Shown here piece after piece: positions 24,456 through 30,313 of a stretch of DNA of 32,000 nt (positions within the stretch are counted from its first letter, which is position 1; the number at the start of each line of letters is the position of its first letter). Position numbers and translations under genes: made by a program. The DNA comes from an uncultured Chloroflexia bacterium (lineage in GTDB: Bacteria; Chloroflexota; Anaerolineae; Anaerolineales; Anaerolineaceae). The stretch lies in contig OY969938.1 in NCBI GenBank assembly GCA_963704755.1, positions 4,350,001 through 4,382,000 on the forward strand, read 5' to 3'. Under the pieces are notes generated by a model. The model was not told the origin of the DNA. It worked only from the letters and a program-made list of their open reading frames with translations, and did not search any database.

Positions 24456-24812
24456 AGATTAGTAAAAAGTCAACAAGGCAACGAGCGAATGAGGCAATAG
24501 GGGAAGAGGCAATGAGGCGACGAGTGAATGAGGCAAAAAGGAAAGAGGCAACGAGGTAAGAAGTCGATCAGGGTACCAGTAGAAAGGTGGACGTCGCATC
24601 GCCTTATTGCCTCTTGACGCTTCACTGGCCGGCGCTCACCCTCATCCCCCGGCCCCTTCCCCCAGAGCAGGGGAAGGGGTGCCTTGCTACCGAGATATGA
24701 CGTTACCTGATTGCTCGTTGCCTAATTACTCGTTGCCTCGTCGACTTGTCCCCTCATCGACTTGTTGCCTCTTTACTAATCTCTAATCCCTATTTTTCTA
24801 ATCTCTATTCTC
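24441..24812. repeat. ~370-bp imperfect palindromic element between convergent genes, overlapping both 3' ends
   Basis: The left end gagaatagaga...tagagattagtaaa is mirrored at the right end (reverse complement of 24770-24812). The left arm carries 4-5 GAGGCAA heptamers, mirrored by TTGCCTC on the right arm. There is a central hairpin CCCCTTCCCC-N7-GGGGAAGGGG (24653-24679). Confidence 0.75.
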
Positions 24813-27550: not shown

Positions 27551-27749
27551 GGAACTCTCCCTTAAAAAAATTTACCTCTTAGGTGCAAATATTCTCCATC
27601 CTGGCGGTCAGGCCAGGGTGCACCTTTGAGGTTCTTCTTTCATCGGGGTGGAGTCAGGCTGTGTGCTCCGCCTGCAGTGAGATTTAAGTTTACCATAAAT
27701 TTTGCGGCTGTAGCCTGGCTTTCAAAGCCGGGTTTCGGGCAAACCAGCG

Positions 27750-27884
27750 TCTGGGCGACCAGGGTCGCGGCAACAAAAACACGAAGCCCGGCCTGCGCCG
27801 GGCTCAGGGTTGACGGGGGACCTGGCCCTGATGGAGACCCACGAAGGTGGGTCTTTGTGTACTTGTAGGTGCAGCTTTAGCTGC
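27750..27884 (-). repeat. Structured repeat unit 1 (type A); candidate terminator-ended small RNA on the minus strand
   Basis: Hairpins: GCGAC-cagg-GTCGC; AGCCCGGC-ctgc-GCCGGGCT (27785-27804), preceded on the plus strand by caacaaaaacacga, which is a U tract on the minus strand; AGACCCAC-gaag-GTGGGTCT (27835-27854); GCAGC-ttta-GCTGC. Confidence 0.9.
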
Positions 27885-27908
27885 CACCGGGTTACGGTCA
27901 GGCCCGTG

Positions 27909-28043
27909 CCTGGGCGACCAAGGTCGCGGCAACAAAAACACGAAGCCCGGCCTGCGCCGGGCTCAAGGATGACGGGGAATCTGTCGTAGGTGGAGCCCCA
28001 CGAAGGTGGGGCTTTGTGTGGTTGTAGGTGCAGCTTTAGCTGC
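27909..28043 (-). repeat. Structured repeat unit 2 (type B)
   Basis: Same four hairpins. Terminator stem at 27944-27963. The third hairpin reads AGCCCCAC-gaag-GTGGGGCT, a compensatory change relative to type A. Confidence 0.9.
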
Positions 28044-28090
28044 TGATTGCCCAGCCCGGCTTTCGAAGCCGGGTTTCGGGCAAACCAGCG

Positions 28091-28225
28091 TCTGGGCGAC
28101 CAAGGTCGCGGCAACAAAAACACGAAGCCCGGCCTGCGCCGGGCTCAGGGTAGACGGGGAATCTGTCGTAGGTGGAGCCCCACGAAGGTGGGGCTTTGTG
28201 TGGTTGTAGGTGCAGCTTTAGCTGC
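28091..28225 (-). repeat. Structured repeat unit 3 (type B)
   Basis: Near-identical to unit 2. Terminator stem at 28126-28145. Confidence 0.9.
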
Positions 28226-28249
28226 TGCCGGGCTACGGACAGGCCCGTG

Positions 28250-28384
28250 TCTGGGCGACTAAAGTCGCGGCAACAAAAACACGAAGCCCGGCCTGCGCCG
28301 GGCTCAGGGTTGACGGGGGACCTGGCCCGGAGGGAGACCCACGAAGGTGGGTCTTTGTGTACTTGTAGGTGCAGCTTTAGCTGC
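28250..28384 (-). repeat. Structured repeat unit 4 (type A)
   Basis: Near-identical to unit 1, except the first hairpin GCGAC-taaa-GTCGC and 4 nt in the variable segment. Terminator stem at 28285-28304. Confidence 0.9.
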
Positions 28385-28488
28385 TGTCTGAACGGCGAAG
28401 CCCTGAATTCAACCTCTCTGACTTACACCAAACTTATCCCCGGCTTTGAAAGCCAGGCTACATGATAGATGTCTACATGATCGACAGT

Positions 28489-29540: not shown

Positions 29541-30313
29541 TTATTCAGCCCGACCGGCGTCGCGCTGCCAGAAAATGGCCCGGTGCTCGGCCAGAACGGA
29601 GAGCCGATAGAAAAGGATGCCGGCCAGGGAAAGGATGAAAATGGCGGCGAACAAATAAGGCAGGTTCAGGTTGGCGTAGGCCACCCACATGATGCGGCCC
29701 AGCCCACCGGACGCGCCGGTCCACTCGGCCACTACCGCGCCGATCAGTGCCAGCGGGGCGCTGATTTTGAGAGCCGCGAAAAGGTAGGGCAGCGAAGAAG
29801 GAAATCCGTAAGTTGGTGAAGACCTCCCAGCGTGAAGCGTACCAGGAGTCGAACAGGTCGATCAGGGGCGGCTCCACCTGCTGCAGGCCGGTGAGCATGT
29901 TCACCAGCACCGGAAAGAAGGTCAGCAGGGCCGTGATGATAATCTTGGGGGTGACGCCAAAGCCCAACCAGAGCGTCAGCAGCGGCGCGATGGCCACCAG
30001 CGGGGTGGATTTGACCAGGATAGCCAGGGTCATGACCCCATCTTCGATGCCGGGGATGAGGATCAACAGGCAGGCCAGCAAGATCTCCGGCGGCCATTCC
30101 AAAAATCAAGCCGGCCAGGGCCTCGCCCAGGGTGAACAGGGTCGCCTGGCTGAAATCGGACAGATTGGCAAACAGGGTGGCCAGAATGCGGGTCGGGGCC
30201 GGCAGCAAATAGACCGGGATCGACCAGATCTGCACGGCAGCCTGCCAGCCGAGTAGAAATAACAGTACGATGACCCAGGCAACCCAGACGGAATTCCGCG
30301 ATGAGGTTTTCAT
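29541..30313 (-). pseudogene. ABC transporter permease (SsuC/TauC-like) interrupted by two frameshifts
   Basis: Three overlapping ORF pieces together give a complete permease. Piece 29744..30313 holds the N-terminus up to ...EALAGLIFG. Piece 29545..30102 reads ...[16 protein letters not shown]...[10 protein letters not shown]...[10 protein letters not shown]. Piece 29541..29732 reads ...[15 protein letters not shown]...FWQRD. The switches are near 30081-30106 (next to the A5 run 30101-30105) and at the A3 run 29802-29804, where removing one base gives [30 protein letters not shown]. Confidence 0.8.

What the first reader, a model, noticed from the sequence alone, without database searches (positions are those of the whole stretch)
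27711..28460. Four tandem 135-nt structured units (A-B-B-A), each with its own minus-strand intrinsic terminator, in a gene-free gap upstream of a CDF transporter gene
The units at 27750-27884, 27909-28043, 28091-28225 and 28250-28384 are each exactly 135 nt and nearly identical.

Arrangement:
- Spacers alternate 24/47/24 nt. This gives a 341-bp higher-order period: long spacer, unit, short spacer, unit, twice over.
- The block is bracketed by a 22-nt inverted repeat (27711-27732 versus 28439-28460).

Structure within each unit:
- Four hairpins are conserved: GCGAC-N4-GTCGC, AGCCCGGC-CTGC-GCCGGGCT, AG(A/C)CCCAC-GAAG-GTGGG(T/G)CT and GCAGC-TTTA-GCTGC.
- On the minus strand the 8-bp GC-rich hairpin is followed by UCGUGUUUUUGUUG. 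Every unit therefore carries a canonical Rho-independent terminator.
- Units 1 and 4 (type A) differ from units 2 and 3 (type B) in a ~25-nt variable segment.
- The two types also differ by a compensatory double change in the third hairpin (A:T in type A, C:G in type B). The stem is preserved, not the sequence.
- ACAAAAACAC upstream of the terminator stem can pair with GTGT(AC/GG)TTGT downstream of hairpin 3. That pairing would close a three-way junction.

No reading frame survives across units, because the 159/182-nt spacing breaks frame.

Possible readings:
- an array of small terminator-ended RNAs, like multicopy sRNA arrays
- a tandem cis-regulatory or insulator element between the ABC operon and the CDF gene
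- an unusually ordered REP/BIME-like array

I do not recognise it as any RNA family I know. I could not find a conserved -35/-10 in front of each unit, which weakens the independent-sRNA reading.
Basis: partly seen in the sequence, partly recalled or inferred. Interest (0 to 1): 0.8.

Follow-up and report, generated by a model that had tools for sequence, protein, structure and literature searches.

The report
Tandem cluster of palindromic repeat elements
The four 135-base units are real, but they look like a tandem cluster of a selfish palindromic DNA repeat (the REP/REPIN/BIME kind) inserted between two genes of an Anaerolineae bacterium, not an array of small RNA genes. The find is a new repeat family of a familiar type.

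Summary
There are four near-identical 135-nt units with 24/47/24-nt spacers, a 341-bp higher-order repeat present twice, a perfect 24-nt flanking inverted repeat, and a terminator-like hairpin on the minus strand of every unit.

The sRNA-array reading is not supported:
- Each unit is a pseudo-palindrome. A covariance model built on the minus strand also hits the plus strand of every unit.
- The unit consists of two inverted half-modules: GC hairpin, CTTCGTGTTTTTGT, a 4-nt tag, then a 5-bp stem-loop. One arm is GTAG-GT-GCAGC-TTTA-GCTGC, the signature of GTAG-type REPs.
- The "U-tract" is also one strand of a 14-bp closing helix.
- No unit contains a -10-like hexamer on either strand.
- Five syntenic Anaerolineae relatives lack the array. 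One has only 162 nt between the same genes, and all keep the CDF gene's own promoter and leader.
- One full copy sits in frame inside a glycosyltransferase gene of another Anaerolineales organism.
- The half-module alone recurs at six loci of an Armatimonadota genome, inside mosaic repeats.
- Rfam has no match.

Best reading: a REPIN/BIME-like repeat cluster that probably also terminates transcription. The family's defining features (genome-wide copy number, a cognate RAYT transposase) could not be tested. Interest is modest.

The parts
27709..27732 (+). Left GTAG-tagged palindrome (TGTAG-CCTGGCTTTCAAAGCCGGG). It is one arm of the perfect 24-nt inverted repeat that brackets the array.
   Evidence: sequence
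27712..28393 (.). Two copies of a 341-bp higher-order repeat. Each copy holds a palindrome, a linker, a unit, a 24-nt spacer and a second unit. The two copies are 89% identical.
27750..27884 (.). Unit 1 (type A), a pseudo-palindromic REPIN-like element. Sub-parts: H1 27755-27768; helix strand ACAAAAACACGAAG 27773-27786; H2 27785-27804; variable linker 27805-27834; H3 27835-27854; helix strand CTTTGTGTACTTGT 27853-27866; GTAG tag 27865-27868; H4 27871-27884.
27909..28043 (.). Unit 2 (type B)
28055..28073 (.). Middle copy of the 19-nt palindrome (CCCGGCTTTCGAAGCCGGG), inside the 47-nt spacer. Its tag is CCAG rather than GTAG.
28091..28225 (.). Unit 3 (type B)
28250..28384 (.). Unit 4 (type A)
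28439..28462 (-). Right GTAG-tagged palindrome, the second arm of the 24-nt inverted repeat. It is followed by a short direct repeat CTACATGATAGA / CTACATGATCGA at 28458-28484.
27784..27805 (-). Terminator-like hairpin H2 of unit 1, with tail CGTGTTTTTG. Equivalent sites lie at 27943-27964, 28125-28146 and 28284-28305.
27551..27700 (-). Context, not part of the repeat: the CDF gene's own extended -10 promoter (TGGTAAACT at 27695) and its conserved structured leader. Relatives that lack the array keep both.

Best explanation
The block is a tandem cluster of a non-coding palindromic repeat element of the REP/REPIN/BIME kind, sitting in a repeat-prone intergenic gap of an Anaerolineae (Chloroflexota) genome.

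Anatomy (shown). Each 135-nt unit is a doublet of two inverted arms:
- Each arm is a GC-rich hairpin, then CTTCGTGTTTTTGT, then a 4-nt tag, then a 5-bp stem-loop.
- The tags face inward.
- About 25 variable nucleotides separate the arms, so the whole unit can fold back on itself on either strand.
- One arm carries GTAG-GT-GCAGC-TTTA-GCTGC. The other carries GTTG-CC-GCGAC-NNNN-GTCGC.

Origin (inferred). The element arrived by transposition or recombination, possibly through a Y1/HUH-type (RAYT-like) enzyme that recognises the tagged stem-loop on single-stranded DNA. It was then amplified locally by unequal recombination: first into a two-unit 341-bp block that included flanking sequence, then into two blocks. 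Gene conversion would account for the A-B-B-A order.

Consequence (inferred). On the minus strand, which is the sense strand of both neighbouring genes, every unit presents a strong hairpin followed by a U-rich tract. The cluster therefore probably ends transcription of the upstream ABC-transporter operon and shields the CDF promoter that starts a few bases beyond the array. I regard this as a by-product, not the reason the array exists.
For: Symmetry
- A covariance model built on the minus strand scores 175-177 bits on the minus strand and 66-72 bits (E about 1e-14 to 1e-15) on the plus strand of the same units. nhmmer shows the same.
- Both strands fold into the same architecture, with z-scores from -3.2 to -6.1.
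- In the independent copy L011 the two arms are nearly perfect mirror images. Both have a hairpin followed by CUUCGUGUUUUU(U)GU.

REP signature
- GTAG-GT-GCAGC-TTTA-GCTGC is present in all four units and in L011.
- The flanking palindromes are GTAG-tagged.
- PMC3733652 describes GTAG REPs this way: stems of 5-13 bp; GW extra bases in families GTAG-1 and -2; dimers with 20-100-bp spacers that may contain stem-loops or complementary ends; clusters of dimers reiterated in tandem with flanking DNA; intragenic copies; and occurrence in Chloroflexi.
[quoted passage not shown] The largest held four REPINs plus one REP over more than 700 bp, and compensatory changes were common.

Not conserved at this locus
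- Syntenic relatives L010 (CDF 84% identical), L013 (89%), L014 (76%), L016 and L017 (73%) have no unit upstream of the CDF gene.
- L017 has only 162 nt between the two genes.
- L010 and L013 carry unrelated simple repeats in the gap.

Unrelated contexts
- One full unit lies in frame inside a 939-aa GT39-like gene of an Anaerolineales metagenome contig. It occupies a segment where homologues carry other repeat-derived insertions.
- The roughly 50-nt arm occurs at six loci of an Armatimonadota chromosome, within mosaic repeats whose modules are shuffled.

Conservation pattern
- One arm (GGGCTTCGTGTTTTTGTTGCCGCGAC) is identical in the window, L011 and the Armatimonadota copies, while its partner strand drifts. 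That fits sequence-specific recognition better than a helix selected for pairing.

No sign of independent genes
- No promoter-like site was found and no TANNWT hexamer lies inside any unit.
- Rfam gives nothing at gathering score.
Against: - Copy number in the source genome is unknown. The other 31 kb of the window hold no further copy, and the source genome was not retrievable.
- Only one other full unit was found by exact 20-mer scans of 185,579 species genomes and of the JGI metagenomes. A six-frame protein search found nothing. The family is therefore rare or fast-diverging, whereas classical REP families are abundant.
- No Y1/RAYT transposase was seen in the window or in the held loci (a weak test).
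- One arm is tagged GTTG, not GTAG. The arms are much longer than a classical 20-40-nt REP.
- No target-site duplication or clean empty site could be defined.
- Sharing a 50-nt module at roughly 80% identity (my estimate from the alignments) between two phyla is unusual for REPs, which are mostly lineage-specific.
Confidence: 0.6

Rival explanations
1. A selected tandem terminator or insulator. The four minus-strand hairpin plus U-tract modules are kept because they stop read-through from the ABC-transporter operon into the CDF promoter. They might also stabilise the operon's 3' end, as REP hairpins do in E. coli.
For: - There are four terminator-like sites on the sense strand of both flanking genes, with hairpins of -18.9 kcal/mol.
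- The array ends about 12 nt upstream of the CDF extended -10 promoter.
- In three of the four Armatimonadota loci where the neighbouring genes could be read, the arm lies downstream of a co-oriented gene.
Against: - One terminator would do the job, and relatives manage with none or with unrelated repeats.
- In L011 the same module lies on the sense strand in the middle of a 939-aa gene.
- In Armatimonadota locus L001 it is antisense to both neighbouring genes.
- The U-tract starts 2-4 nt after the stem and also pairs in the closing helix.
- This reading is compatible with the repeat-element reading as a side effect. It does not replace it.
Confidence: 0.15
2. An array of four independently made small RNAs of about 100-135 nt on the minus strand, each ending at its own terminator. 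A variant is a single precursor processed into such RNAs.
For: - Stable predicted folds (z from -4.2 to -4.5 on the minus strand).
- Terminator-like 3' ends.
- Stems kept with different sequences in L011.
- One G-U pair in L011's H2 works only on the minus strand.
Against: - No promoter-like element lies in or between units. This lineage's own promoter type (TGnTAAACT) is absent from the units, and only 24 nt separate units.
- The plus strand folds as well or better, and G-U evidence points both ways. The type B linker hairpin and two Armatimonadota H1 variants wobble only on the plus strand.
- The array is absent from five syntenic relatives.
- A homologue lies in frame within a coding gene.
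- There is no Rfam family match.
Confidence: 0.1
3. Plus-strand Rsm/Csr-type (RsmY/RsmX-like) protein-sponge RNAs in tandem.
For: Weak cmscan matches on the plus strand: RsmY at 23.0 and 18.7 bits and rsmX at 20.1 bits. A few AGG/GGA motifs occur in the linker.
Against: - The scores are far below the gathering thresholds (57 and 56 bits).
- The matches rest mainly on the terminal hairpin.
- The GGA-containing linker is the least conserved part. It is replaced by CTAGTTTAAGAGAG in L011.
- There is no promoter or GacA-type upstream site.
Confidence: 0.02
4. An assembly artefact: a collapsed or expanded repeat.
For: Tandem repeats are error-prone in assemblies, and no reads are available to check.
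Against: - The two 341-bp blocks differ at 11% of positions. The units come in two sequence types in the order A-B-B-A, which mis-assembly of identical repeats would not produce.
- The source is a 4.87-Mb contig.
- An independent homologous unit exists in another organism.
Confidence: 0.03

Closest known systems
REPINs (REP doublets forming hairpins) and their ordered tandem clusters, as described in Pseudomonas fluorescens SBW25 (PMC3116915)
   Same: - Two conserved arms in inverted orientation around a variable spacer, and the whole unit can form a long hairpin.
- Compensatory changes are seen in the stems.
- Clusters are tandem repeats of nearly identical units including flanking sequence. 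The largest SBW25 cluster has four REPINs plus one REP over more than 700 bp. Here there are four units plus three extra palindromes over about 750 bp.
   Different: - The arms here are about 55 nt and include a GC hairpin and a T-rich tract, against about 25 nt in SBW25.
- The phylum is Chloroflexota.
- Genome-wide population size and a cognate RAYT are unknown.
- Only one arm carries GTAG.
- Part of one arm is shared with an Armatimonadota genome.
GTAG-tagged REPs (GTAG-1 type) and BIME clusters (PMC3733652; PMC3333891 and PMC2817692, abstracts only)
   Same: - An unpaired GTAG tag plus two extra bases (GT), then a 5-bp stem with a 4-nt TTTA loop.
- Tail-to-tail dimers with a spacer of just under 100 bp that carries its own stem-loops and complementary ends.
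- Alternating orientation at regular spacing.
- Location downstream of a coding region.
- Intragenic copies exist, and GTAG REPs have been reported in Chloroflexi.
   Different: - The second arm is tagged GTTG-CC.
- The conserved sequence extends 14 nt beyond the tag.
- Copy number was not established.
- Binding of IHF or gyrase, or RAYT cleavage, was not tested.
In-frame palindromic insertions such as Rickettsia palindromic elements (RPEs), and MITEs such as Neisseria Correia elements (my own knowledge; RPE-1, -4 and -6 as intragenic palindromic insertions are mentioned in PMC3733652)
   Same: - A palindromic element of 100-150 bp that is tolerated in frame inside a protein-coding gene (the L011 copy).
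- Elements of this kind can carry terminator-like or promoter-like activity.
   Different: - No terminal inverted repeats with a target-site duplication could be defined here.
- There is no evidence that the encoded peptide is selected.
- The window copies are intergenic and tandem.
Multicopy tandem sRNA genes, for example tandem rsmX copies or PrrF1/PrrF2 in Pseudomonas (my own knowledge)
   Same: Near-identical units of about 100-150 nt lie head to tail, each ending in a hairpin plus U-tract.
   Different: Those units each have a promoter, are strand-specific and are conserved at their loci. Here no promoters were found, both strands are equivalent, and the locus is not conserved.

Membership tests
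REPIN / REP doublet | [quoted passage not shown] | tested here: met
   The covariance model hits both strands of every unit. The folds agree, and the type B unit folds as one extended hairpin. The arms in L011 are near-perfect mirror images.
REPIN / REP doublet | Arms conserved and spacer variable, with compensatory changes | tested here: met
   Window versus L011: the spacer is 20 nt shorter and unrelated. H3 shows three double changes, and H4 and H2 one each. Types A and B differ in the spacer and by one compensatory pair.
REPIN / REP doublet | A dispersed population of copies within one genome | not testable with these tools
   Only 32 kb of the source genome is available and it holds no other copy. 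The source contig could not be fetched. Indirect support: one copy in another Anaerolineales contig, and six half-module loci in one Armatimonadota chromosome.
REPIN / REP doublet | A cognate RAYT (Y1/HUH transposase) gene in the genome, flanked by the same REPs | not testable with these tools
   None was found among the window's genes. tblastn with an IS200 TnpA sequence recalled from memory gave no significant hit in 163 kb of held DNA. This is a weak test that covers only a tiny fraction of the genomes.
GTAG-tagged REP (PMC3733652) | A short stem-loop (stem 5-13 bp, loop 2-20 nt) tagged at one end by an unpaired GTAG | tested here: inconclusive
   Met for H4 in all four units and in L011 (GTAG-GT-GCAGC-TTTA-GCTGC), and for the two flanking palindromes. 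Not met for H1 (GTTG-CC) or for the middle palindrome (CCAG).
BIME-type cluster | Regularly spaced palindromic units in alternating orientation with alternating linker types | tested here: met
   Arms alternate in orientation. The internal linker is about 30 nt and the external linkers alternate between 24 and 47 nt.
Independent small-RNA gene | Its own promoter, a defined strand and a conserved locus | tested here: not met
   No promoter-like sites, strand symmetry, and absence from five syntenic loci.
Rsm/Csr sponge RNAs (Rfam clan CL00106) | A score at or above the Rfam gathering threshold, and conserved GGA loops | tested here: not met
   RsmY scores 23 bits against a threshold of 57, and rsmX 20 bits against 56. 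The motif region is not conserved in L011.
Any Rfam 15 family | A match at gathering score | tested here: not met
   No match in the window and none overlapping the homologous modules in 13 loci.

The most novel reading that the evidence does not exclude
The 36-nt module GGGCTTCGTGTTTTTGTTGCC-GCGAC, identical in an Anaerolineae genome, an Anaerolineales metagenome contig and an Armatimonadota chromosome, may be the recognition end of an undescribed mobilisation system. This could be a non-RAYT HUH enzyme or another single-strand DNA enzyme, or an RNA-level mobile element. Such a system would move between phyla and build self-terminating, in-frame-tolerated palindromic elements. Alternatively, the 135-nt junction-type fold (a closing helix around two or three hairpins) could be a functional mobile RNA.
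Probability: 0.1. Interest if true: 0.6.

Novelty: new member of a known kind. Interest (0 to 1): 0.3.

Why it matters
If the reading is right, this is an undescribed REPIN/BIME-like repeat family in Chloroflexota, a phylum whose small mobile DNA is barely catalogued.

Three details are worth a specialist's attention:
- The arms carry a built-in terminator-like hairpin.
- One copy is tolerated in frame within a membrane glycosyltransferase gene.
- Part of one arm is shared almost unchanged with an Armatimonadota genome.

The case is also a practical caution for RNA-motif discovery. Tandem units with neat hairpins, compensatory changes and 'terminators' can be palindromic DNA repeats. A simple test is whether a structure model scores on both strands. 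The finding does not open a new kind of biology.

Tried and rejected
- Rfam. Nothing in the whole window at gathering score. The region at E<=10 gave only sub-threshold RsmY, rsmX and CC3552 matches. The Rsm reading was rejected because its motifs are not conserved in L011.
- Source genome. Looking up both flanking proteins and the 100%-identical P0001 found nothing on record.
- Exact 20-mer scans.
  - Genome collection: real homologues only in one Armatimonadota metagenome-assembled genome (MAG). The three 'Acidobacteria' contigs are one locus family. They share only about 26 nt and may be a chance match, since about one chance hit is expected for a 20-mer.
  - Metagenomes: one real homologue (L011) and one chance hit inside a coding gene (L012).
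  - Viral contigs: a chance hit.
- A six-frame chimeric 'protein' query, meant to catch mis-called ORFs over other copies: no hit.
- blastn of the unit and of the Armatimonadota module against plasmids: no match.
- nhmmer and covariance-model searches of all held loci (147 kb searched with the covariance model): no extra copies.
- The Armatimonadota copies do not share the unit-level fold.
- tblastn with an IS200 TnpA sequence recalled from memory: nothing.
- A scan for other GTAG-tagged hairpins in the window: no excess outside the array, 6 observed against 4.1 expected.
- An empty-site test for the L011 insertion. The homologues are too divergent in that segment to define exact boundaries or a target-site duplication.
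- Considered from the sequence alone and dropped: sigma-54 or ECF promoters, a hammerhead-like core, attC, dif, a CRISPR repeat, a retron, and a TnpB guide RNA. None had its defining features or an associated gene nearby.
- The NiCo/czcD riboswitch as an explanation for the CDF leader: no Rfam match.
Full report
**1. The observation**

The region was read directly. Four units lie at 27750-27884, 27909-28043, 28091-28225 and 28250-28384.
- A 36-nt core is identical in all four, against none expected by chance. Mean column identity is 88%.
- The spacers are 24, 47 and 24 nt.
- Tandem Repeats Finder reports a 341-bp period with two copies at 89% identity, plus the 159-bp sub-period.
- The flanking inverted repeat is 24 nt and perfect (27709-27732 / 28439-28462). 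It is itself a palindromic hairpin, with a third copy at 28055-28073 inside the long spacer.
- The consensus scan finds four minus-strand terminator-like sites, one per unit.
- The A/B types and the compensatory A:T / C:G pair in hairpin 3 are as described.
- The gap (27551-28488) lies between an NMT1-type solute-binding-protein gene and a CDF gene. Both are on the minus strand.

**2. Anatomy: a pseudo-palindrome, not a directional gene**

Read on the minus strand, a unit runs as follows:
- H4 (GCAGC-TAAA-GCTGC), then ACCT
- ACAAGTACACAAAG
- H3
- a variable linker of about 30 nt
- H2
- CTTCGTGTTTTTGT
- TGCC, then H1 (GCGAC-NNNN-GTCGC)

The two A-rich and T-rich 14-mers pair and close the structure. 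The 'terminator U-tract' is therefore also one strand of that helix.

The unit is really two inverted arms, each made of a GC hairpin, the 14-mer, a 4-nt tag and a 5-bp stem-loop.
- Both strands fold into the same architecture, with z-scores from -3.2 to -6.1.
- A covariance model built on the minus strand scores 175-177 bits there. It still scores 66-72 bits on the plus strand of the same units. nhmmer shows the same.
- G-U versus A-C asymmetries point both ways, so no strand is favoured. L011's H2 wobbles only on the minus strand. The type B linker hairpin and two Armatimonadota H1 variants wobble only on the plus strand.

**3. Relatives**

The window comes from an Anaerolineae bacterium. 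The CDF protein's best named relatives are Anaerolineaceae, Bellilinea and Anaerolinea, and a 100%-identical protein sits on a 4.87-Mb contig. That contig could not be fetched.

Five loci with the same gene order (ABC operon, solute-binding protein, gap, CDF, ProRS) were retrieved: L010 (CDF 84% identical), L013 (89%), L014 (76%), and L016 and L017 (73%).
- None contains the unit.
- L017 has just 162 nt between the two genes.
- L010 and L013 carry unrelated simple repeats there.
- All share only the last 150 nt or so before the CDF start codon: an extended -10 (TGGTAAACT) and a structured leader.

The array is therefore a lineage-specific insertion upstream of an ancestral promoter, not a conserved regulator of the CDF gene.

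**4. The same element elsewhere**

An exact 20-mer from the core (GGCAACAAAAACACGAAGCC) was scanned against one genome per species and against the JGI metagenomes.

*A full unit in L011.* One full homologous unit exists in L011, an Anaerolineales contig.
- All four hairpins and the closing helix are kept, although the stems differ. H3 has three double changes, and H4 and H2 one each.
- The linker is 20 nt shorter and unrelated.
- Its two arms are almost perfect mirror images.
- This copy lies in frame inside a 939-aa GT39-like glycosyltransferase gene.
- In homologues, that same segment is hypervariable and carries other repeat-derived insertions.

*A half-module in Armatimonadota.* In an Armatimonadota chromosome (OY760504.1) the 20-mer occurs at six loci.
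- Only one arm is shared: an H2-like hairpin, CTTCGTGTTTTTGTTGCC, then GCGAA-TTTA-TTCGC, with a compensatory change in the small stem.
- It sits within mosaic intergenic repeats whose modules recombine in different orders.
- The unit-level fold is not present there.

*A doubtful hit.* Three 'Acidobacteria' contigs share about 26 nt. They represent one locus family, which is about what chance predicts for a 20-mer, so I do not rely on them.

*Negative searches.* No further copies turned up in viral contigs, in plasmids, or by a six-frame protein trick.

**5. No sign of independent transcription**

The promoter scan found nothing in the gap. No TANNWT hexamer lies inside any unit on either strand. 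The only extended -10 is the CDF promoter at 27695 on the minus strand. Rfam gives nothing at gathering score. The best sub-threshold hits are plus-strand RsmY and rsmX at 20-23 bits against thresholds of 56-57. They rest on the hairpin and on linker motifs that L011 lacks.

**6. Comparison with known kinds**

One arm reads GTAG-GT-GCAGC-TTTA-GCTGC in all units and in L011. The flanking palindromes are also GTAG-tagged.

Di Nocera et al. (PMC3733652) define GTAG REPs as follows:
- short stem-loops (stems 5-13 bp) with an unpaired GTAG
- 'GW' extra bases in families GTAG-1 and -2
- frequent head-head or tail-tail dimers with 20-100-bp spacers that may carry stem-loops or complementary ends
- clusters of dimers reiterated in tandem with flanking DNA
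- intragenic copies
- occurrence in Chloroflexi

Bertels and Rainey (PMC3116915) describe REPINs as inverted REP doublets that form hairpins. The arms are conserved, the spacers vary and compensatory changes are common. [quoted passage not shown] That is nearly a description of this block.

Differences from those families:
- The arms are longer and include a GC hairpin and a T-rich tract.
- The second arm is tagged GTTG-CC.
- Genome-wide copy number and a cognate RAYT could not be tested.
- Part of one arm is shared across phyla.

**7. Mechanism**

Shown: the palindromic doublet architecture, the tandem higher-order duplication, absence at orthologous loci, presence in unrelated contexts, and terminator-like hairpins (-18.9 kcal/mol) on the sense strand of both neighbouring genes.

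Inferred:
- The element arrived by transposition or recombination, perhaps through an HUH/Y1 enzyme that recognises the tagged stem-loop on single-stranded DNA.
- It was then amplified by unequal recombination, and gene conversion produced the A-B-B-A order and the perfect outer inverted repeat.
- Its likely effect is to terminate the ABC operon's transcript and shield the CDF promoter, which begins about 12 nt beyond the array.

I put 0.6 on this reading. The rivals are:
- 0.15 on a selected terminator or insulator, which overlaps with the main reading
- 0.10 on small RNAs
- 0.02 on Rsm-like RNAs
- 0.03 on an assembly artefact

**8. Verdict**

The feature is real and neatly organised, but it belongs to a known kind. 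It is a new member, with some unusual details, of the palindromic intergenic repeats. Interest is 0.3. The most novel reading not excluded is a cross-phylum mobilisation system, or a mobile structured RNA, defined by the invariant 36-nt arm. I give that about 0.1.

Noticed in passing
window 27551-27700 (minus strand); L010 9856-10003; L013 380-531; L014 26-173; L016 2852-3005; L017 2866-3005: The CDF (cation efflux) gene has a conserved extended -10 promoter (TGGTAAACT) and a structured 5' leader. The leader holds an invariant GGCGGAGCAC(A/T)CAGCC hairpin and a long stem CCTCAAAGGTGCA/TGCACCTnAGAGG around a variable hairpin that shows compensatory changes. In the four-sequence fold, CUCC is predicted to pair with the Shine-Dalgarno GGAG. 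Rfam has no match, including the NiCo/czcD riboswitch. This could be an undescribed metal-responsive leader or a protein operator.
   Followed up: partly
window 29545-30313 (minus strand): The ABC permease gene appears frameshifted. Two overlapping ORFs (29545-30102, which matches BPD_transp_1, and 29744-30313) stand where the orthologue in L010 is one 256-aa gene. It is either a pseudogene or a sequencing error.
   Followed up: no
window 24460-24800: The gap between the convergent peptidase S9 and ProRS genes is filled with short repeats (GAGGCAAYGAG on one side, its inverse CTCGTTGCCT on the other) and AATCTCTAATCTC-type repeats. Similar simple repeats occur in the L013 gap and inside the L011 glycosyltransferase gene.
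   Followed up: no
L011 5434-8253 (minus strand) and homologues P0121, P0126, P0130: One loop/transmembrane segment of a GT39-like glycosyltransferase is a hotspot for different in-frame repeat-derived insertions in several Anaerolineales organisms. This suggests that repeat invasion of coding sequence is tolerated in this lineage.
   Followed up: partly
L001, L002, L004, L005, L006, L009 (Armatimonadota OY760504.1): These loci contain dense mosaic intergenic repeats built from shuffled modules of 45-500 nt. One module is the common GTCATTCTGAGC...GAAGAATC type. L002 and L005 also carry a second, degenerate copy of the core (GCGGAACAAAAACGCGC) about 150 nt away in the same orientation.
   Followed up: partly
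window 28458-28484: A short direct repeat, CTACATGATAGA / CTACATGATCGA, abuts the right-hand GTAG palindrome. It may be a partial duplication of the element's end. It was not interpretable as a target-site duplication.
   Followed up: no
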